The translations under genes and the position numbers were made by a program. Shown piece after piece: positions 11,258-16,494 of a stretch of DNA of 64,000 nucleotides. The first letter of the stretch is position 1. Each line of letters starts with the position of its first letter. Below the pieces are notes generated by a model, which was not told where the DNA came from, made no database searches, and was given only the letters and a program-made list of their open reading frames with translations. The DNA comes from a virus, in UHGV virus genome UHGV-0272730; one strand, given 5' to 3'.

Positions 11258-11671
11258 TTAAACTTTTATGATACCAGCATGTACTTTTCTGTGACAGTTA
11301 GCGCACAAGACAATGCACTTTCTGATTTCATCTTTTAATCTTTTTGTGGAGTATGAATAAAGTGATGCAGGATTCAAATCTTTCTGGGAAGGGTCTGTAT
11401 GGTGTAAATCCAATGCAACTGGTTCTTTCTCACCACATATATGACATTTGCATAAAGCTTTGTACCTTCTAGCTAGAGTCTTGTTATACTCTCTCTTGAA
11501 GTTACGAGTGCTTTTAATAGCCTCTTTCCTTTTATCATTTGCTTGATAACTCTTTGCATCACGAAGTCTTGCACAGTCTTTGCATTGACTTTGAAGACCA
11601 TCTTTCTTGTTCTTATTCTTATGGAATAAGCTTTCATCTTTTGGTATTCTGCAAGTACTGCATATTTTCAT
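11258..11671 (-). CDS. HNH homing endonuclease
   Basis: 137 aa with Cys clusters and HNH core CHICGE...LDLHH...CANCH. Confidence 0.75.
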   Translation of the reverse strand: MKICSTCRIPKDESLFHKNKNKKDGLQSQCKDCARLRDAKSYQANDKRKEAIKSTRNFKREYNKTLARRYKALCKCHICGEKEPVALDLHHTDPSQKDLNPASLYSYSTKRLKDEIRKCIVLCANCHRKVHAGIIKV

Positions 11672-12009: not shown

Positions 12010-12264
12010 ATTAAATCTTTTTAGAGAACTTCTAAGAACCTAAGCAACAAGGCTCCACAACAAGCTGTAATAACCTTAGAAGCCCTCTAAAAAGACCTAA
12101 ATAGGTCTTTGCATAGTCTTGTTTAATCCGGTGACTAGAACCTTTGGAGAGCTTGATATTATCTCTTCTCCGTGACACCTACTAGGTGCTTTGACAGTGT
12201 ACGACAATACACGAGGGATAAACCGACAATGCGAACAAGCATGGACGGAGTAAATCTTATTAGG
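12010..12264 (-). ncRNA. structured non-coding spacer in tRNA array (candidate stable RNA)
   Basis: 255 nt without convincing ORF; about 19 bp imperfect inverted repeat (12017-12036 vs 12074-12093) plus small hairpin AGACCTAAATAGGTCT. Confidence 0.3.
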
Positions 12265-12354
12265 CGGTAAGTAAAGGAGTCGAACCCTCACCGTATCTCT
12301 ACAGTGGCAACTGTTTTCAAGACAGTTTGGCTACCATTAGCCGCTACCTACCCC
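12265..12354 (-). tRNA. tRNA-Ser (anticodon TGA), class II
   Basis: Acceptor GGTAGGT/ACTTACC, anticodon arm ACTGT-CTTGAAA-ACAGT perfect, long variable arm, T loop TTCGACT. Confidence 0.6.
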
Positions 12355-12365
12355 TAATAAGACTT

Positions 12366-12448
12366 TGGCATGGGACGGAGGAGTTGAACCCCTTTGAAAC
12401 GGTTTTGGAGGCCGTTGCTCATGCCTTAGAGTCTTAACATCGTCCCAT
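12366..12448 (-). tRNA. tRNA-Trp (anticodon CCA), tentative, with enlarged D region
   Basis: Acceptor ATGGGAC/GTCCCAT perfect, anticodon arm ACGGC-CTCCAAA-ACCGT; 83 nt. Confidence 0.5.
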
Positions 12449-12460
12449 ATTATAATTCGA

Positions 12461-12489
12461 AGCTTACCCTGTTATCTCAACACTGTCAA
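12461..12489 (-). promoter_or_regulatory. candidate sigma70-like promoter upstream of tRNA at 12366-12448
   Basis: Minus strand TTGACA (12484-12489), 17 bp spacer, TAAGCT (12461-12466). Confidence 0.3.
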
Positions 12490-12590
12490 GCTTCTTCTCA
12501 GATTATTTACATGTTCTGGAAAACATGAGATACAGACCACCTCCTTACACGGAGACCCGATAAGGTCGTCTAAGCAATCTGCTAACTATT

Positions 12591-12667
12591 TGGTACACCC
12601 TACAGGATTCGAACCTGTAACTAACGATTTAGAAGACCGTTGCTCTATCCAATTGAACTAAGGGTGC
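12591..12667 (-). tRNA. tRNA-Arg (anticodon TCT)
   Basis: Acceptor GCACCCT/AGGGTGT, D arm GTTC/GAGC, anticodon arm ACGGT-CTTCTAA-ATCGT, T arm ACAGG-TTCGAAT-CCTGT, CCA encoded. Confidence 0.65.
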
Positions 12668-12987
12668 ATTAACATTTTAAAGGGTACTTATTGCATTTAA
12701 GCCAAGCCCCATAAGGGATACCCTTTAGAATGTTGCCCACCTTATTAATCATACCGTGGGCGAGTACGCCAAATTCTTTGATGAGGGATTGGAAGACCTC
12801 ACTGGTGTTTAGCCTATCAAGCTACTGCCAGAAAAACATTGTCGTTTGCATTTATTTTAAATTTTCAAAATAGACGCTACGCAACGAAAACTATTCAGAA
12901 TATGTACAACAAATTTCCCCACATTGTGTTACGTCTAACGCTCATGTATTGGTGTTTGAATTATACATATTATGAAGTGTTTTAGTT

Positions 12988-13016
12988 ACTATAAAGTAGT
13001 CACATCTCAATGTCAA
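12988..13016 (-). promoter_or_regulatory. candidate sigma70-like promoter within 360 nt tRNA spacer
   Basis: Minus strand TTGACA (13011-13016), 17 bp spacer, TATAGT (12988-12993). Confidence 0.4.
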
Positions 13017-13031
13017 CAACTTTATTGAAAT

Positions 13032-13107
13032 TGGTGCTGGTAGGTGGAATCGAACCACCGATGTTCCCTTATCAGGGGAGTGTTATAACCTTCTTAACTA
13101 TACCAGC
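13032..13107 (-). tRNA. tRNA-Ile (anticodon GAT)
   Basis: Acceptor GCTGGTA/TACCAGC, D arm GTTA/TAAC, anticodon loop CTGATAA, T arm GGTGG-TTCGATT-CCACC, CCA encoded. Confidence 0.65.
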
Positions 13108-13108
13108 T

Positions 13109-13185
13109 TGGAGGTTCAGATGGGAATCGAACCCACATTCATAGGGCTTATGAAACCCCTGCATTACCTTATCTGCGACTGAACC
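13109..13185 (-). tRNA. tRNA with anticodon CAT (Met, fMet or Ile2)
   Basis: Acceptor GGTTCAG/CTGAACC, anticodon arm GGGGT-TTCATAA-GCCCT, T loop TTCGATT, CCA encoded. Confidence 0.55.
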
Positions 13186-13263
13186 AGAATAAGTACCCTA
13201 GTTAGAGAAACTGTTGAGTGGGTGTTTCCAGCCGCGCAGGTGTTTCTCAGTTAAGGGTGAATT

Positions 13264-13339
13264 TGGTAGAAGTGGAGGGATTCGAACCCATCGCCTGTCA
13301 GATTAAAAGTCTGCCGCATCACCATTCTGCTACACTTCC
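13264..13339 (-). tRNA. tRNA-Lys (anticodon TTT)
   Basis: Acceptor GGAAGTG/CACTTCT, anticodon loop CTTTTAA, T loop TTCGAAT, CCA encoded. Confidence 0.6.
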
Positions 13340-13539
13340 ATTAAATTATCTTTGTAGATAAGCTACCCAGACTTGCTTAAGGTCTGTAGCGATGTGCCTT
13401 TTTGGGTTTAAATCTAGAATTTACCCTTTCACCCTTTGTGGTCGCATACTCACAGGTAAGCTTAATAACTTATCTACAAAGATAATTACCAGACCGTTGT
13501 TTATCATCTTAAGTGCTACCATTACACCAACTCGACATC

Positions 13540-13566
13540 TGCCGAGTGAAGGAATCGAACCTTCGC
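13540..13566 (-). other. tRNA-like 3' fragment (T arm plus acceptor strand only)
   Basis: GAAGG-TTCGATT-CCTTC T arm followed by ACTCGGC on the minus strand, but no complementary 5' acceptor strand or anticodon arm within about 100 nt. Confidence 0.3.
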
Positions 13567-13795
13567 CTTTTCTTTACCGAGAAATAGATTGTTTAAGTTT
13601 TGCTGTAAACGGTCTTCTGTAAATTTGTTGAGCCAGACCAAGTTTTAAATTTTTCAAAATTAAATTGGCTTGAAATTTTCATACGTTCTTGCTGTATTTG
13701 GTCTTCTGCTCCTTTAAAGGATACTCGTAAGAACCCTTTAAGGGAGGGGCTAAAATAGCCCTCTCAAACATCATTTTGAAATACTTATTATAATT

Positions 13796-13873
13796 TGGCG
13801 GTTACGAAGGGATTTGAACCCTCATCATCTCCCGTGACAGGGGAGTATTTTAACCAGATTAAACTACATAACC
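13796..13873 (-). tRNA. tRNA-Asp (anticodon GTC)
   Basis: Anticodon arm CTCCC-CTGTCAC-GGGAG perfect, T arm GAGGG-TTCAAAT-CCCTT, CCA encoded. Confidence 0.65.
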
Positions 13874-13879
13874 TTTATT

Positions 13880-13967
13880 TGGTGTGCCGTGTAGGAGTCG
13901 AACCTACCGAGTCTCAATGACAAGGGATTTACAGTCCCCACCGCTACCATCTACGGGATAACGACAC
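13880..13967 (-). tRNA. tRNA-Tyr (anticodon GTA), class II
   Basis: Acceptor GTGTCGT/ACGGCAC (one G-U), 3 bp D stem CCG/CGG, anticodon arm GGGGA-CTGTAAA-TCCCT, about 15 nt variable arm, T arm GTAGG-TTCGACT-CCTAC. Confidence 0.6.
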
Positions 13968-13976
13968 ATTTAAATT

Positions 13977-14053
13977 TGGCGGTTAGTCAGGGATTCGAAC
14001 CCTGTGCCATTCGCTTAACAGGCGACCGCACATACCTTATGTGCTTCCTAACC
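13977..14053 (-). tRNA. tRNA-Asn (anticodon GTT)
   Basis: D arm GCAC/GTGC, anticodon loop CTGTTAA, T arm CAGGG-TTCGAAT-CCCTG, CCA encoded. Confidence 0.6.
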
Positions 14054-14130
14054 TTAATACATTGCCAGACCGTGTTTTTTCTTTTATCCGCAAAAAGTAT
14101 TTTGTTGCTGAATACGGTCTTCTGCAAAAT

Positions 14131-14207
14131 TGGAGGCGGGTGCAGGAGTCGAACCTGCCGATACCATGCTAATGAGACATGTGAGACGCCCTTTCTCTAT
14201 ACCCGCA
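14131..14207 (-). tRNA. tRNA with anticodon CAT (Met-type; 1-72 mismatch hints at initiator)
   Basis: Anticodon arm CATGT-CTCATTA-GCATG, T arm GCAGG-TTCGACT-CCTGC, CCA encoded; first acceptor pair appears unpaired. Confidence 0.5.
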
Positions 14208-14298
14208 ATTCTTAATGACCAGACCAAATCTCTTCTTTGTCCGATTTACCTTCAGATGAATAAGATTAAGTTTGCTGTAATTGGTCTTCTGTCAAAAC

Positions 14299-14376
14299 TG
14301 GCGTTCCAGAAGGGATTTGAACCCTCAGATATCCACTTTGAAAGAGTGGTGACTTTACCATTTTGTCTACTGGAAC
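14299..14376 (-). tRNA. tRNA-Glu (anticodon TTC)
   Basis: Acceptor GTTCCAG/CTGGAAC perfect, anticodon arm CCACT-CTTTCAA-AGTGG perfect, CCA encoded. Confidence 0.65.
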
Positions 14377-14383
14377 ATTAATT

Positions 14384-14460
14384 TGGTCTCTGTTGGAGGA
14401 CTTGAACCTCCGGCCTTACCGCCCCAAACGGAACGCTCTACCAAGCTGAGCTAAACAGAG
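14384..14460 (-). tRNA. tRNA-Pro (anticodon TGG)
   Basis: Acceptor CTCTGTT/AACAGAG perfect, D arm GCTC/GAGC, anticodon loop TTTGGGG, T arm GGAGG-TTCAAGT-CCTCC, CCA encoded. Confidence 0.65.
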
Positions 14461-14486
14461 ATAAACTTTTCAAACTCTATGTAACC

Positions 14487-14516
14487 ACTTTAACATTATT
14501 TTTTAGTGGTTGTCAA
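14487..14516 (-). promoter_or_regulatory. candidate promoter at head of tRNA array
   Basis: Minus strand TTGACA (14511-14516), 18 bp spacer, TGTTAAAGT extended -10-like (14487-14495), about 25 nt upstream of first tRNA 5' end. Confidence 0.35.
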
Positions 14517-14582
14517 GAACTTTTTTAAAATATTTTTCAGTATCTTAGAAAAGCTCTCATTTCGTTTCTATGTAGAACATAT

Positions 14583-14622
14583 TAAAGGGTATTAAACACA
14601 TTGTCAATACCCTTTTTAAAAC
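14583..14622. terminator. hairpin with flanking T/A tracts (possible bidirectional terminator)
   Basis: GGGTATTAAACACATTGTCAATACCC followed by TTTTTTAAAA on plus; lies just downstream of minus gene ending at 14626. Confidence 0.4.
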
Positions 14623-14625
14623 TTT

Positions 14626-16041
14626 TTACCAGATGTAACGGTCAATCATTACTGCTTTGAGCATTACGCTGGTTGGGTCAAACTTCTCACCACCAAGCAG
14701 AGCTTTTAAAGTGGCTGGAGAGAACCCTGATACCATTGCTACACCGTTATCCTTAACAGATACTTCGCAAGTACCACTACGGTTTGCTAAGTACCAGAAT
14801 ACCAGTTGTGGCATTTCGTATCCAGCTTTTTTGTACTTACTACGAATTGCTTCAAAGTTTGTACGACCATTTGCACCGTCAACCTGATTGAACTCCATAT
14901 CAGAGAAGATGATAAGCTTACTTGGCATATCTTTCTGAGTCAAGTTGTTTCTCTTACCTGTCTCAAGAATGCGGTCAAAAGCTGCTTGTAAGTTAGTTGA
15001 ACCGTATTCAACATGACGCATTACCTGACGATGACGGTTTCGTAAATCACCACTCAGTTCAATGAAGTGAGGGTTTGTTGAATAAACCATCAACTCATTC
15101 TTAAAGCAACCTGTATTACGTTCTGCTACATACAATGCAAGTGAAACACCAATATCAAGAGCAGTAATTGAACCAAAATTCACCCAAGACATTGAACTTG
15201 AAACATCAGACATACATAGAATGTTTTCACCCTCTGCCATCCAGTTTGGTAGTGCTTTCCACTGCTCATTAGCAACATCTGCATTACCATACTTAACAGA
15301 TTTAATCACATCGTATGGGTAAACAGCACCAGCATTAATCTTAGTCTTACCCTTTGATAAGGACTCGATGTAAGCTTTGTAGCGCTCTCCATCTTTACGG
15401 TTAAACAGTTTTTGGTAACGTGCAGCAGCAAGTGAAGGAATCTTGCTGTAATCAATCTTACCAAACTCATTAGCAGAGATTTTTTGCTCAACTGTATCAG
15501 ATAGTGCAGACAACAGTGTGCGGTACTCTTTCTCACTCAAGTTGGCAAACTTGCAGAAACGTTTTACAAACTGTTTGTGGCGTGGTTTTACTCGTGGCAA
15601 CCACTTAGCTGCTAAACCTGCTGTTGCAGGGTCTAGTAATGCTGCTTCTAAATGTTTGAAGGCATCTGTCTCGAAACGAGTACCTACGAAGATTTTGAAG
15701 TCATCAAAACGACCAAGTTCTGCAATCTTATCCATAATGCGAAGAACCTGTGTAGGTTCTAAAACTTTATCTTCAATCGCTTGAAGCAAAACAGTTCTGA
15801 AGGCTTTACGCTCACCCATACCTTCTCGTACATCTCGCATATGCAGTAAAATACGAACTGCAACATCAACATCCTCACGCAAAGCTTTGTAGAACAAGTC
15901 TGGTAAGATTTCTACATTGCTACGGCTTGAACCAGCAGCTTTGTAAAAATCTACAAGAGCAGACATTGATGAAGTATGGTTTACAGCACCATTTTCAGTT
16001 CGACCTGCATGAAGGTGCGCATGTTTAAATAACTCGCTCAT
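14626..16041 (-). CDS. vWA-domain protein (MIDAS motif), possibly Ro60/TROVE-like architecture
   Basis: 471 aa; DVSSSMS matches the D-x-S-x-S MIDAS motif of vWA domains; helical N-terminal 250 aa; sits immediately upstream of the tRNA array. Confidence 0.5.
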   Translation of the reverse strand: MSELFKHAHLHAGRTENGAVNHTSSMSALVDFYKAAGSSRSNVEILPDLFYKALREDVDVAVRILLHMRDVREGMGERKAFRTVLLQAIEDKVLEPTQVLRIMDKIAELGRFDDFKIFVGTRFETDAFKHLEAALLDPATAGLAAKWLPRVKPRHKQFVKRFCKFANLSEKEYRTLLSALSDTVEQKISANEFGKIDYSKIPSLAAARYQKLFNRKDGERYKAYIESLSKGKTKINAGAVYPYDVIKSVKYGNADVANEQWKALPNWMAEGENILCMSDVSSSMSWVNFGSITALDIGVSLALYVAERNTGCFKNELMVYSTNPHFIELSGDLRNRHRQVMRHVEYGSTNLQAAFDRILETGKRNNLTQKDMPSKLIIFSDMEFNQVDGANGRTNFEAIRSKYKKAGYEMPQLVFWYLANRSGTCEVSVKDNGVAMVSGFSPATLKALLGGEKFDPTSVMLKAVMIDRYIW

Positions 16042-16122
16042 ATTTTACTCTCTTCTCTCATTTGTTGTTTGATGTGACAGACTTTAGAGCAACTTTGTAG
16101 AGTCTGTCAACACCTTTTAAAA

Positions 16123-16494
16123 TTATTTTTTGAGAGTCGCTACAGCAGAGAACGTTGGTTTGTTATCTGTCTGTGGCTGACCACCATTATCAGGGGTCTT
16201 CTTAGTGTCTGCTGCAATTGCTTTCATCTCACCTGCTGAGTGAGTCATGATAGTTTTACCGACCTCAATCATACTCTTGATGGTTACGTCATCTGTGTTT
16301 AACCCGAACTCTGCAAGCTTAGCAGCATCCCTTGTAACAATCGCCTCAAACAGCTTTGCAGCAAACTCAGCAGAATTATCAATGGTCAGTTGAGCTTTTA
16401 CGAGTGAGCTTTTGTTACGAGAGCCTTTTGGTCTTCCAGATGGGTTTCCAGACTGGCCTTTTTTAAACTGGCCTTTGTTTGTTCTGTTTTTCAT
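16123..16494 (-). CDS. hypothetical protein with basic GNPSGRPKG N-terminus
   Basis: 123 aa ORF; KKGQSGNPSGRPKG motif then helical domain. Confidence 0.45.
   Translation of the reverse strand: MKNRTNKGQFKKGQSGNPSGRPKGSRNKSSLVKAQLTIDNSAEFAAKLFEAIVTRDAAKLAEFGLNTDDVTIKSMIEVGKTIMTHSAGEMKAIAADTKKTPDNGGQPQTDNKPTFSAVATLKK

What the first reader, a model, noticed from the sequence alone, without database searches (positions are those of the whole stretch)
12010..16041. vWA-domain protein adjacent to the tRNA array, tRNA-like fragments and structured spacers: possible Ro60/Y-RNA-like arrangement
The 471 aa protein (14626-16041) has a clear MIDAS motif (DVSSSMS) in a C-terminal vWA-like domain and a helical N-terminal half, an architecture reminiscent of Ro60/TROVE proteins. 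Bacterial and phage Ro60 orthologues are known to be encoded next to Y RNAs that contain tRNA-like domains. Here the gene sits beside a tRNA array that also contains an orphan T-arm/acceptor fragment (13540-13566), a 255 nt structured spacer (12010-12264) and other long spacers. The TROVE assignment is unverified.
Basis: inference. Interest (0 to 1): 0.6.

Follow-up and report, generated by a model that had tools for sequence, protein, structure and literature searches.

The report
Phage Ro60-like protein and Y-like RNAs
A FelixO1-type phage encodes a ring-shaped Ro60-like RNA-binding protein, already shown by others to defeat a bacterial defence system, and right next to it, hidden between its tRNA genes, are four small structured RNAs (one a scrambled tRNA look-alike) that belong to a previously undescribed RNA family found beside this protein in well over a hundred unrelated phage and bacterial genomes.

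Summary

What appears new is the RNAs themselves. Four spacer elements (A 14294-14216, B 14127-14062, C 13711-13630, D 13622-13486) share a covarying closing stem followed by UWCAGCAA. The same "handle" lies on the gene's strand beside DUF2828 homologues in 60 of 80 viral loci and 63 of 80 bacterial loci. Hits there outnumber opposite-strand and shuffled controls by roughly 7- to 30-fold. The handle is absent from the T5 tRNA array. The canonical Ro-binding CGAA motif is absent, and Rfam's YrlA model gives only sub-threshold matches to relatives. Protein-RNA binding is inferred, not shown. The 255-nt spacer is structured but does not belong to this family.

The parts
14626..16041 (-). Ro60-fold protein gene (471 aa; Pfam DUF2828 + DUF7788; PHROG 850 'RNA-binding protein'); orthologue of Bas63 gp130
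16081..16110 (-). sigma-70-like promoter upstream of the Ro60-like gene (TTGACA-18-TAAAGT)
   Evidence: Consensus scan, 10 of 12 matches. A consensus match only; the number of sites in the region does not exceed shuffles.
14487..14607 (-). two sigma-70-like promoters between the gene and the first tRNA (14607-14579 and 14516-14487). They would start the transcript that carries tRNA-Pro, Glu, unit A, Met, unit B, Asn, Tyr, Asp, units C and D
   Evidence: 10 of 12 matches each. Inference only.
14216..14294 (-). Unit A, a short Y-like RNA (79 nt). Outer stem UGAC/GUCA, AGA bulge, inner stem AGACCAA/UUGGUCU, then UUACAGCAA, then a bulged G. It fills the tRNA-Glu/tRNA-Met spacer
   Evidence: Sequence, fold, descriptor. 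Model R3, built without Felixounavirus sequences, scores it 22.9 bits, E 0.0065.
14062..14127 (-). Unit B, a short Y-like RNA (66 nt). Outer stem UUGC/GCAA, AGA bulge, AGACCGU/ACGGUCU, AUUCAGCAA. It fills the tRNA-Met/tRNA-Asn spacer
   Evidence: R3 34.6 bits, E 9.4e-6, the best hit in the window. The outer stem is UUAC/GUAA in Bas63, a compensatory change.
13630..13711 (-). Unit C, a short Y-like RNA (82 nt). Outer stem GAGC/GCUC, AGA bulge, AGACCAA/UUGGUCU, AUACAGCAA
   Evidence: R3 19.5 bits, E 0.044.
13486..13622 (-). Unit D, a long YrlA-like RNA (137 nt). Outer stem UUAC/GUAA, AGA bulge, AGACCGUU/AACGGUCU, UACAGCAA, a V-like hairpin, then the permuted tRNA-like domain
   Evidence: Fold MFE -33.4 kcal/mol. 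Architecture compared with published YrlA. Descriptor hit.
13511..13568 (-). Permuted tRNA-like core of unit D: T-arm GAAGG-UUCGAUU-CCUUC, closed acceptor-like helix ACUCGGC-AGAU-GUCGAGU, then U-G and D-arm GUGU-AAUGGUA-GCAC.
   Evidence: Model R2, built without Felixounavirus sequences, scores it 43.5 bits, E 5.5e-10, the top hit in the window; tRNA-junction artefacts reach at most 30.5 bits. Covariation of the three helices: 94% paired, 12 of 16 pairs compensatory.
13796..14460 (-). Flanking tRNAs of the same transcription unit (Pro, Glu, Met, Asn, Tyr, Asp). Their processing would release units A and B
   Evidence: ARAGORN. Units A and B lie within 4-8 nt of the tRNA ends. Release by tRNA processing is an inference.

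Best explanation
The locus encodes a divergent Ro60-Y RNA type ribonucleoprotein system. The protein is a Ro60-fold ring (a HEAT-like helical toroid plus a vWA domain with MIDAS) belonging to the DUF2828/DUF7788 family. The four spacer elements A-D are its candidate RNA partners. Each has a conserved 'handle': a 7-8 bp closing stem that begins 5'-AGR and ends YCU-3', followed by an unpaired G, with a single-stranded N-U-W-CAGCAA on the 5' side and an A-rich stretch on the 3' side. The handle is proposed to be the protein-binding site, playing the role of the CGAA-bulged stem of canonical Y RNAs. The interior 'payload' is variable. In units A-C it is a short loop, like YrlB. In unit D it is a circularly permuted tRNA mimic, like YrlA. 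The RNAs are co-transcribed with the tRNA array from the promoters at about 14607 and 14516, and are probably freed when RNase P and the 3'-end processing enzymes cut out the neighbouring tRNAs. The resulting RNP is proposed to use the tRNA-like payload to engage tRNA-recognising factors (host processing enzymes, exoribonucleases such as PNPase, or tRNA-directed defence nucleases), and so to serve phage counter-defence and/or quality control of the phage's own tRNA pool. What is shown: the Ro60 fold, the RNA structure with its covariation, and the genomic linkage. What others have shown: the anti-ppl activity of the orthologous protein. What is inferred: RNA stability, protein-RNA binding, the release mechanism and the role of the payload.
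Against: There is no expression, stability or binding data for these RNAs. In the PhageMaP preprint gp130 alone, expressed from a plasmid or from the T7 genome without any Felixounavirus RNA, restores plaquing on the ppl strain, so at least that activity does not need the phage RNAs. The canonical Ro-binding motif GNCGAAN0-1G occurs in 0 of 79 elements and CGAA in 2 of 79. Rfam's YrlA model does not detect window unit D even at E<=10 in a 271-nt search, and relatives score 24-39 bits against a gathering score of 69. The outer helices do not align to YrlA. 17-20 of every 80 loci have no hit with the strict descriptor, including Vibrio phage phi-pp2. Position right beside the gene is also what a cis-regulatory element would show. 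My shuffle controls preserved mononucleotide, not dinucleotide, composition.
Confidence: 0.6

Rival explanations
1. The elements act in cis. They could be operator or stability sites in the 5' or 3' untranslated region through which the Ro60-like protein regulates its own mRNA, or processing and punctuation signals (RNase III/E/P sites) for the gene-tRNA transcripts. They would not be free-standing trans-acting RNAs.
For: Many copies sit 27-35 nt after the stop codon or less than 250 nt before the start codon, on the gene's strand. In the window units A and B exactly fill inter-tRNA spacers. Other spacers in the array are long perfect hairpins of the kind RNase III cuts.
Against: In the window the units lie 340-1150 nt downstream of the gene, beyond two promoter-like sites and interleaved with tRNAs, so they are not in its UTR. 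Up to 8 tandem copies occur per locus (L161). The payloads are elaborate and modular, including a covarying permuted tRNA that resembles YrlA. The T5 tRNA array, which is processed by the same host enzymes, has none. An autoregulatory operator would in any case still imply that the protein binds the handle.
Confidence: 0.17
2. The RNAs are functional tRNA mimics or decoys that work without the Ro60-like protein, for example by soaking up tRNA-targeting defence nucleases or tRNA-modifying enzymes. On this view they are merely co-inherited with the protein as part of a mobile tRNA-biology accessory module.
For: gp130 acts against ppl without the RNAs. tRNA or tmRNA genes are co-oriented near the gene in 29 of 53 distant viral loci. 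The acceptor loop carries NCCA in some copies, as in permuted tRNA or tmRNA genes.
Against: The part conserved across all copies is the handle, not the tRNA-like payload. Most copies are short and have no tRNA-like part (median 77 nt). The handle tracks the gene even where no tRNAs are present. It is the gene's only consistent neighbour.
Confidence: 0.15
3. The units are non-functional debris: decayed tRNA genes and repeated spacer remnants left by duplication and by homing-endonuclease traffic in the array.
For: The array does hold an HNH-like ORF (11258-11671) and at least one decayed tRNA-like sequence (12372-12446).
Against: Compensatory covariation in every helix. Conservation of the same architecture beside the same gene across phages of Enterobacteria and elements in Clostridia, Chloroflexi, Bacteroidales and others at 33-45% protein identity. 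All four units are kept in all 7 Felixounavirus genomes examined, while their loop lengths drift.
Confidence: 0.03

Closest known systems
Bacterial Ro60 (Rsr) with YrlA/YrlB Y RNAs (Salmonella Typhimurium rsr-yrlBA-rtcBA; D. radiodurans Rsr-Yrn1; Chen et al. 2014, PMC4201824)
   Same: A ring-shaped HEAT + vWA/MIDAS protein. One or more small RNAs are encoded next to it on the same strand. The RNAs are built from a closing stem formed by the 5' and 3' ends plus a variable interior. One long RNA has a tRNA-like domain in the order V, T-arm, closed acceptor stem-loop, D-arm, and there are shorter partner(s) without it. The 3' side of the junction is A-rich in both, as seen in the Rfam YrlA consensus.
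   Different: The protein is undetectable by the TROVE Pfam model and belongs to DUF2828/DUF7788. The handle has AGR...YCU-G plus UWCAGCAA in place of the GNCGAAN0-1G / CGAA bulge (0 of 79 elements). Rfam YrlA scores are far below the gathering threshold. The RNAs are embedded in a tRNA array, with four copies here and up to eight elsewhere. There is no conserved rtcB/rtcA neighbour.
Bas63 (Escherichia phage JohannRWettstein, MZ501086) gp130, from the PhageMaP preprint, bioRxiv 10.1101/2024.10.10.617714
   Different: The preprint proposed that some annotated tRNA genes might be Y RNAs and did not identify any RNA. Here the candidates are in the spacers, not among the annotated tRNAs, and they are defined as a family with a handle, covariation and wide distribution.
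Thermus phage phiLo Ro60 with Yrl1/Yrl2 (PMC12135203; PDB 9KOP, 9L5Y)
   Different: phiLo Ro60 is a recognisable TROVE protein, and its Yrls were picked by the CGAA motif. They lie upstream of the gene and are not in a tRNA array.
Stable non-tRNA RNAs of the phage T5 tRNA region (RNAI, RNAIII, RNAIV, RNA2H, RNAX; tRNA-like RNA1, RNA2, RNA3), as annotated in NC_005859
   Same: Small stable RNAs, some tRNA-like, encoded between tRNA genes of a lytic coliphage and of unknown function. They are a precedent for tRNA-array spacers giving rise to stable RNAs.
   Different: They have no CAGCAA handle and no permuted T-AS-D core, and the T5 stretch examined has no match to the Ro60-like protein. They are a different RNA class.
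Circularly permuted tRNA genes and two-piece (permuted) tmRNA genes
   Same: In a subset of relatives (L081a/b, L072a/b, L043, L050) the loop closing the acceptor helix begins NCCA, exactly as in a gene where the 3' acceptor strand + CCA precedes the 5' strand.
   Different: The window's unit D loop is AGAU, with no CCA. The anticodon arm is replaced by the handle. There is no evidence of cleavage into two pieces.

Membership tests
Ro60 / TROVE protein family | Sequence match to the TROVE domain model (Pfam PF05731) | tested here: not met
   hmmscan against Pfam-A at E<=1 returns only DUF7788 and DUF2828. Sequence and profile searches of PDB chains find no Ro60.
Ro60 / TROVE protein family | Fold: N-terminal alpha-helical (HEAT-like) toroid closed by a C-terminal vWA domain | tested here: met
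Ro60 / TROVE protein family | MIDAS motif (DxSxS...T...D) in the vWA domain | tested here: met
   D279, S281, S283, T349 and D381 are invariant in 40 homologues.
Ro60 / TROVE protein family | Binds Y RNA stems and misfolded RNA 3' ends | not testable with these tools
   Needs EMSA, CLIP or a structure. Only genomic linkage to a structured RNA is shown.
Pfam DUF2828 + DUF7788 | Scores above the curated cut-offs for both models | tested here: met
   DUF7788 148.4 bits (cut-off 27.1); DUF2828 103.6 bits (cut-off 29).
YrlA (Rfam RF02553, bacterial Y RNA-like) | Covariance-model score at or above the gathering threshold (69 bits) | tested here: not met
   Window unit D gets no hit even at E<=10 in 271 nt. 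Relatives score 24.5-38.9 bits.
YrlA (Rfam RF02553, bacterial Y RNA-like) | tRNA-like domain with T stem-loop, closed 'acceptor' stem-loop and D stem-loop in that 5'-to-3' order, enclosed by a stem formed from the RNA's two ends | tested here: met
   Folds. Covariation. R2 43.5 bits, E 5.5e-10 on unit D. Published layout.
YrlA (Rfam RF02553, bacterial Y RNA-like) | Conserved GNCGAAN0-1G (CGAA) Ro-binding motif near the 5' end | tested here: not met
   0 of 79 distinct elements have GNCGAAN0-1G and 2 of 79 have CGAA. The window units read C-AGAAG-ACC, which resembles the motif only loosely.
YrlA (Rfam RF02553, bacterial Y RNA-like) | Encoded adjacent to a Ro60 orthologue | tested here: met
   The elements are adjacent to a Ro60-fold (not TROVE-sequence) protein in 60 of 80 and 63 of 80 loci.
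YrlA (Rfam RF02553, bacterial Y RNA-like) | Carries tRNA modifications (pseudouridine-55, dihydrouridine) and is a substrate of tRNA enzymes | not testable with these tools
   Requires RNA from infected cells.
Canonical tRNA | Cloverleaf in the standard order with an open acceptor end and an anticodon arm | tested here: not met
   ARAGORN calls no tRNA at 13486-13622. Rfam's tRNA model matches only the T-arm (14.9 bits). The order is permuted.

The most novel reading that the evidence does not exclude
DUF2828/DUF7788 proteins together with the 'CAGCAA-handle' RNAs form a second, previously unrecognised branch of Ro60-Y RNA ribonucleoproteins. The branch would be widespread, since the protein family has about 5,800 representatives at the 50%-identity cluster level across phages and bacteria. 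One protein-binding handle would carry interchangeable payloads: permuted tRNAs, some with an internal CCA that could be processed into two-piece tRNA mimics, and at least two other conserved payload types. In tRNA-rich lytic phages the RNP would be matured from the tRNA array and act as a decoy or tether against tRNA- or RNA-directed bacterial immunity. That would explain why gp130 is a counter-defence gene.
Probability: 0.3. Interest if true: 0.8.

Novelty: new variant of a known kind. Interest (0 to 1): 0.66.

Why it matters
Ro60-Y RNA particles are a classic RNA-surveillance machine and a human autoantigen, and their bacterial and phage roles are only partly understood. The finding matters in three ways. 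First, it shows that a large sister family, invisible to the TROVE sequence model, has its own cognate RNA family with a different protein-binding handle but the same modular logic, including the tRNA-mimic payload. That widens the known range of Ro60-type RNPs and offers a natural comparison for how Ro60 rings recognise RNA. Second, it gives concrete, testable RNA partners for Bas63 gp130, an experimentally validated anti-defence protein whose mechanism is unknown. Third, it corrects genome annotation. Hundreds of Felixounavirus records place small 'hypothetical protein' CDSs, on differing strands, over what are probably RNA genes. It also adds an unannotated RNA class to phage tRNA arrays, which are currently discussed mainly as a response to tRNA-cleaving defences.

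Tried and rejected
(1) Sequence-level links to Ro60: phmmer and a 40-sequence profile against all PDB chains found nothing relevant, and Pfam finds no TROVE. Only fold comparison shows the relationship. (2) Rfam at gathering thresholds finds only tRNAs, tmRNAs and an intron in the window and in 11 loci. The weak miRNA, Dicty_Class_I, snoRNA and RAGATH hits on the spacers are chance matches. (3) The literal Felixounavirus motif CAGAAGACC...GGTCTGG is absent from distant loci; the family only appeared after I generalised to stem + CAGCAA. (4) Whole-element MAFFT alignment was ragged at the 3' end, so I cut out the core and aligned the handle separately. (5) The permuted-tRNA models also hit junctions between tandem tRNAs at 20-40 bits. 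I treated those as artefacts and trusted only hits above about 40 bits or outside tRNA pairs. (6) The 255-nt spacer (12010-12264) and the 13340-13488 hairpin are highly structured but have no handle and no R2 or R3 hit, so they are not part of this family. (7) The neighbour-gene census found no conserved protein partner. RNA ligase plus Metallophos flank the gene in L010, and a few RNA-repair-type domains occur, but none recurs in more than 5 of 143 ORFs. (8) NCCA in the acceptor loop occurs in only a minority (5 of 25 by an explicit descriptor) and not in the window. (9) Vibrio phage phi-pp2 (L082) has the protein but no strict-descriptor hit; I did not pursue this. (10) Literature searches for DUF2828 and for Ro60/Y RNA/phage terms found no description of these RNAs. 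One early search was swamped by the ordinary word 'trove'.


Full report
WHAT IS THERE. The window is a Felixounavirus (FelixO1-like) genome segment. Region 12010-16041 matches 327 phage records, 238 of them over at least 80% of its length. On the minus strand lie a 471-aa ORF (14626-16041) and, directly downstream and co-oriented, an array of 26 tRNA genes from 14460 down to 8675. The DVSSSMS segment is residues 279-285. The T-arm-like fragment at 13540-13566 is real. The 255-nt spacer 12010-12264 folds far better than shuffled sequence (z = -3.8, 0 of 200).

PRIOR ART. The protein is 97.5% identical to bas63_0130 of Escherichia phage JohannRWettstein (Bas63), which has the same gene-tRNA synteny. 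The PhageMaP preprint (bioRxiv 10.1101/2024.10.10.617714) reports several things about gp130. [quoted passage not shown] It lies directly upstream of the tRNA genes. [quoted passage not shown] Deleting g130 gives small plaques on a host carrying the ppl defence gene, and complementation reverses this. Finally, gp130 expressed alone from a plasmid or from the T7 genome rescues T7 on ppl. No RNA was identified in that work.

THE RNAs IN THE WINDOW. Reading the minus strand shows four elements that each begin C-AGA-AGACC and end GGUCU-G-G. The 9-mer CAGAAGACC occurs exactly 4 times within 13611-14291 and only once elsewhere in the window on either strand, and GGTCTGG follows each copy. All four fold alike. 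Each has a 4-bp outer stem that differs between units but stays paired (UGAC/GUCA, UUGC/GCAA, GAGC/GCUC, UUAC/GUAA). Then comes a 3-nt AGA bulge, a 7-8 bp inner stem AGACCNN/NNGGUCU, a single bulged G on the 3' side, and the sequence N-U-W-CAGCAA directly after the 5' strand. In Bas63, unit B's outer stem is UUAC/GUAA instead of UUGC/GCAA, which is a compensatory double change. The coordinates are A 14294-14216, B 14127-14062, C 13711-13630 and D 13622-13486. Units A and B fill the tRNA-Glu/Met and tRNA-Met/Asn spacers to within 4-8 nt. Unit D encloses a V-like hairpin followed by three parts: GAAGG-UUCGAUU-CCUUC (a canonical T-arm), ACUCGGC-AGAU-GUCGAGU (a closed 7-bp helix) and UG-GUGU-AAUGGUA-GCAC (a canonical D-arm with A14, G18 G19 and A21). 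This T, closed acceptor, D order inside a terminal stem is the published YrlA layout.

THE RNAs ARE A WIDESPREAD FAMILY LINKED TO THE GENE. The literal Felixounavirus motif is absent from distant loci. However, L007 (47% protein identity, 22 tRNAs) has equivalents with different, still complementary stems (AGAGCAC/GUGCUCU, AGAGCAGU/ACUGCUCU, AGGACAC/GUGUCCU). Each is followed by UUCAGCAA, and one contains a T-arm. I then wrote a descriptor: a 7-bp stem, 3 nt, CAGCAA, 15-175 nt, and the complementary strand. Applied to 80 IMG/VR loci encoding homologues at about 40% identity, it gave 119 hits on the gene strand versus 17 on the other strand and 5-16 in shuffles. It hit 60 of 80 loci, and 68 of the 119 hits lie within 700 nt of the gene. 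Features the descriptor did not demand are conserved. The base after the 3' strand is G in 98 of 119 hits. Stem position 2 is G in 94%, position 3 is G or A in 95%, and linker position 2 is U in 95%. The stretch before the 3' strand is A-rich. In loci with no tRNA at all (L010, L012, L014, L023, L026, L028) the element sits 27-35 nt after the stop codon. The association is therefore with the gene, not with tRNA arrays.

The unchanged descriptor was then run on an independent test set of 80 loci from bacterial genome assemblies. These have 33-42% protein identity, many are Clostridia, and some lie on contigs from hundreds of kb up to 2.4 Mb. It gave 136 gene-strand hits versus 16 on the opposite strand and 4-7 in shuffles. 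It hit 63 of 80 loci, 115 of 136 hits are followed by G, and 101 of 136 lie within 700 nt of the gene. Normalised per CAGCAA occurrence, 25% and 34% of gene-strand motifs are in the full context versus 5% and 7% on the opposite strand. A census of the 143 nearest flanking ORFs found no recurrent protein family (maximum 5 members), so the RNA is the gene's only consistent neighbour.

COVARIATION AND UNBIASED RECOGNITION. In 35 short elements from distant loci, all 7 stem pairs show changes on both sides, with 100% of cells paired versus 38-44% when partners are slid. Pairing there was required by the descriptor, so the informative points are the diversity of pairs and the excess over controls. 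In the tRNA-like core, which the descriptor did not constrain, 94% of cells pair versus 39-50% slid. 12 of 16 pairs have compensatory changes, and the closed acceptor helix is 7 of 7 and 100% paired. Covariance models built without any Felixounavirus sequence recover the window's units. R3 (the short form) finds B (34.6 bits, E 9.4e-6), A (E 0.0065) and C (E 0.044) as its only hits with E<0.1 on either strand of the 64 kb. R2 (the permuted-tRNA core) finds unit D at 43.5 bits, E 5.5e-10, above the tRNA-junction artefacts, which reach at most 30.5 bits. R2 also finds new cores upstream of the gene in Clostridial loci (L137 at 54 and 43 bits, L118, L108).

The phage T5 tRNA region served as a negative control. 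It holds 25 tRNAs plus annotated stable RNAs. It gives no R3 hit at E<=1, only junction artefacts with R2, no handle within the array, and no match to the protein.

RELATION TO KNOWN Y RNAs. Rfam's YrlA model (RF02553) gives full-length but sub-threshold matches on exactly the tRNA-like relatives. L072 10497-10612 scores 38.9 bits (E 3.7e-5), and four other matches score 24-31 bits, against a gathering score of 69. In the alignments the T-arm, closed acceptor and D-arm match, while the outer helices that carry YrlA's cggCGAA Ro-binding segment do not. The window's unit D is not detected by RF02553 even at E<=10. The canonical GNCGAAN0-1G motif occurs in 0 of 79 elements. So these RNAs work like YrlA and YrlB in architecture: a terminal handle, a modular payload, and a tRNA mimic in one paralogue. 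They fail two defining membership tests, the score and the Ro-binding motif. A different handle is what one would expect if it had co-diverged with a different Ro60-like protein family. Element lengths fall into three classes (46-68, 87-132 and 152-183 nt). At least one other conserved payload exists (GAACCUUUCUGGAGGGGAAAGCAAAAACUCGCC in L008, L009, L013, L015 and L025). This reinforces the picture of one handle carrying several payloads.

MECHANISM (INFERRED). Promoter-like sites at 14607-14579 and 14516-14487 would start a transcript carrying tRNA-Pro, Glu, unit A, Met, unit B, Asn, Tyr, Asp, then units C and D. Excision of the flanking tRNAs by RNase P and the 3'-processing enzymes would leave units A and B as free RNAs with only a few extra nucleotides. 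T5 provides precedent that such spacers yield stable RNAs. I propose that the Ro60-like ring binds the handle and that the payload engages tRNA-recognising proteins. This would follow the example of Rsr-Y RNA-PNPase and of phiLo Ro60-Yrl-PNPase, and would serve counter-defence and/or surveillance of the phage tRNA pool. The main caution is that gp130 alone suffices against ppl in a T7 background. The RNAs are therefore not needed for that activity. They may instead gate, redirect or broaden the protein's function, as Y RNAs do for Ro60.

VERDICT. The protein part is already known. The RNA family, with its handle, its distribution and the explanation of the 'orphan T-arm', appears to be new: it is not in Rfam 15 and not in the searchable literature. 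Binding and expression remain to be shown.

Noticed in passing
window 13340-13488 (minus strand): An exceptionally stable hairpin with a 24-bp closing stem (AAUUAUCUUUGUAGAUAAGUUAUU...), MFE -48.3 kcal/mol, z = -7.2, 0 of 200 shuffles as good. It sits between unit D and tRNA-Lys. It has no handle signature. It may be an RNase III site or a separate ncRNA. In Bas63 an opposite-strand 'hypothetical protein' (bas63_0138) is annotated over it.
   Followed up: partly
Its 3' half (~12012-12100) is a ~30-bp near-perfect hairpin. It gives no R2 or R3 hit and has no CAGCAA handle. Various records annotate it as a small CDS (bas63_0145; CDS0031 in vB_EcoM_E9).
   Followed up: partly
window 12372-12446 (minus strand): A degenerate tRNA-like sequence missed by ARAGORN: acceptor GGGACG/CGUCCC, T-arm GGGGUUCAACUCCUC, and an anticodon-loop-like CUCCAAA, which would read CCA (Trp). 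The Rfam tRNA-Sec model scores it 23 bits, E 0.58. It is either a decayed tRNA or an unusual one.
   Followed up: no
L034 11822-12176; L038 12119-12479; L042 12694-13067; L057 12356-12709; L024 1317-1767; L097 6027-6307: tmRNA genes, including a permuted tmRNA in L097 (98.9 bits), lie a few kb from the Ro60-like gene on the same strand in several distant loci. tRNA or tmRNA genes are co-oriented near the gene in 29 of 53 viral loci.
   Followed up: partly
L081 7729-7791 and 7863-7925; L072 7839-7903 and 10523-10584; L043 7458-7520; L050 7559-7620: In these relatives the loop closing the acceptor-like helix starts with NCCA (ACCA, GCCA, CCCA), as in circularly permuted tRNA or two-piece tmRNA genes. 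That hints at cleavage into a two-piece tRNA mimic with a genuine CCA end. It is absent from the window's unit D (loop AGAU) and is found in only 5 of 25 cores by an explicit descriptor.
   Followed up: partly
L008 5276-5370; L009 3133-3232; L013 149-280; L015 1265-1373; L025 5734-5828: A second conserved payload inside the same handle, ...GAACCUUUCUGGAGGGGAAAGCAAAAACUCGCCAAAA..., which is not tRNA-like. A third, 150-185-nt payload class occurs in L058, L041, L021, L062, L068, L069, L066 and L080.
   Followed up: no
L164 (phage T5, NC_005859 28-42 kb): The T5 record annotates eight stable RNAs of unknown function within its tRNA array, three of them called tRNA-like. None has the handle or the permuted core, so phage tRNA arrays hold at least two unrelated classes of non-tRNA RNA.
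   Followed up: yes
window 13400-13780 and the equivalent regions of L001 and L083: Public Felixounavirus records place small 'hypothetical protein' CDSs over units C and D and the neighbouring hairpin. The strands differ between records: same strand as the tRNAs in vB_EcoM_E9, opposite strand in Bas63. These are probably spurious calls over RNA genes.
   Followed up: partly
L010 4240-5352 and 7803-8516; L012 8285-9025: A T4-type RNA ligase 1 (PF09511) lies just upstream, and a calcineurin-like phosphoesterase just downstream, of the Ro60-like gene and its RNA in L010. L012 has the phosphoesterase as well. Single HAD_SAK_2, cREC_REC and PolyA_pol (CCA-adding head) neighbours occur elsewhere. 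This suggests an RNA-repair setting, but none of these recurs.
   Followed up: partly
window 16123-16494 (minus strand); L007 5490-5855: The ORF immediately upstream of the Ro60-like gene is a DUF5681 protein, both in the window and in the 47%-identity relative L007. It is a locally conserved neighbour of unknown function.
   Followed up: no
window 11258-11671 (minus strand): A 137-aa ORF inside the tRNA array with Cys pairs and a C-terminal ...HHTD...CANCHRKVH motif typical of HNH homing endonucleases. I did not check it against Pfam. The equivalent array position in vB_EcoM_E9 lacks it.
   Followed up: no
L016 11696-11922: A group I intron (Rfam RF00028, 71.5 bits) about 4 kb downstream of the Ro60-like gene in a distant phage contig.
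   Followed up: no
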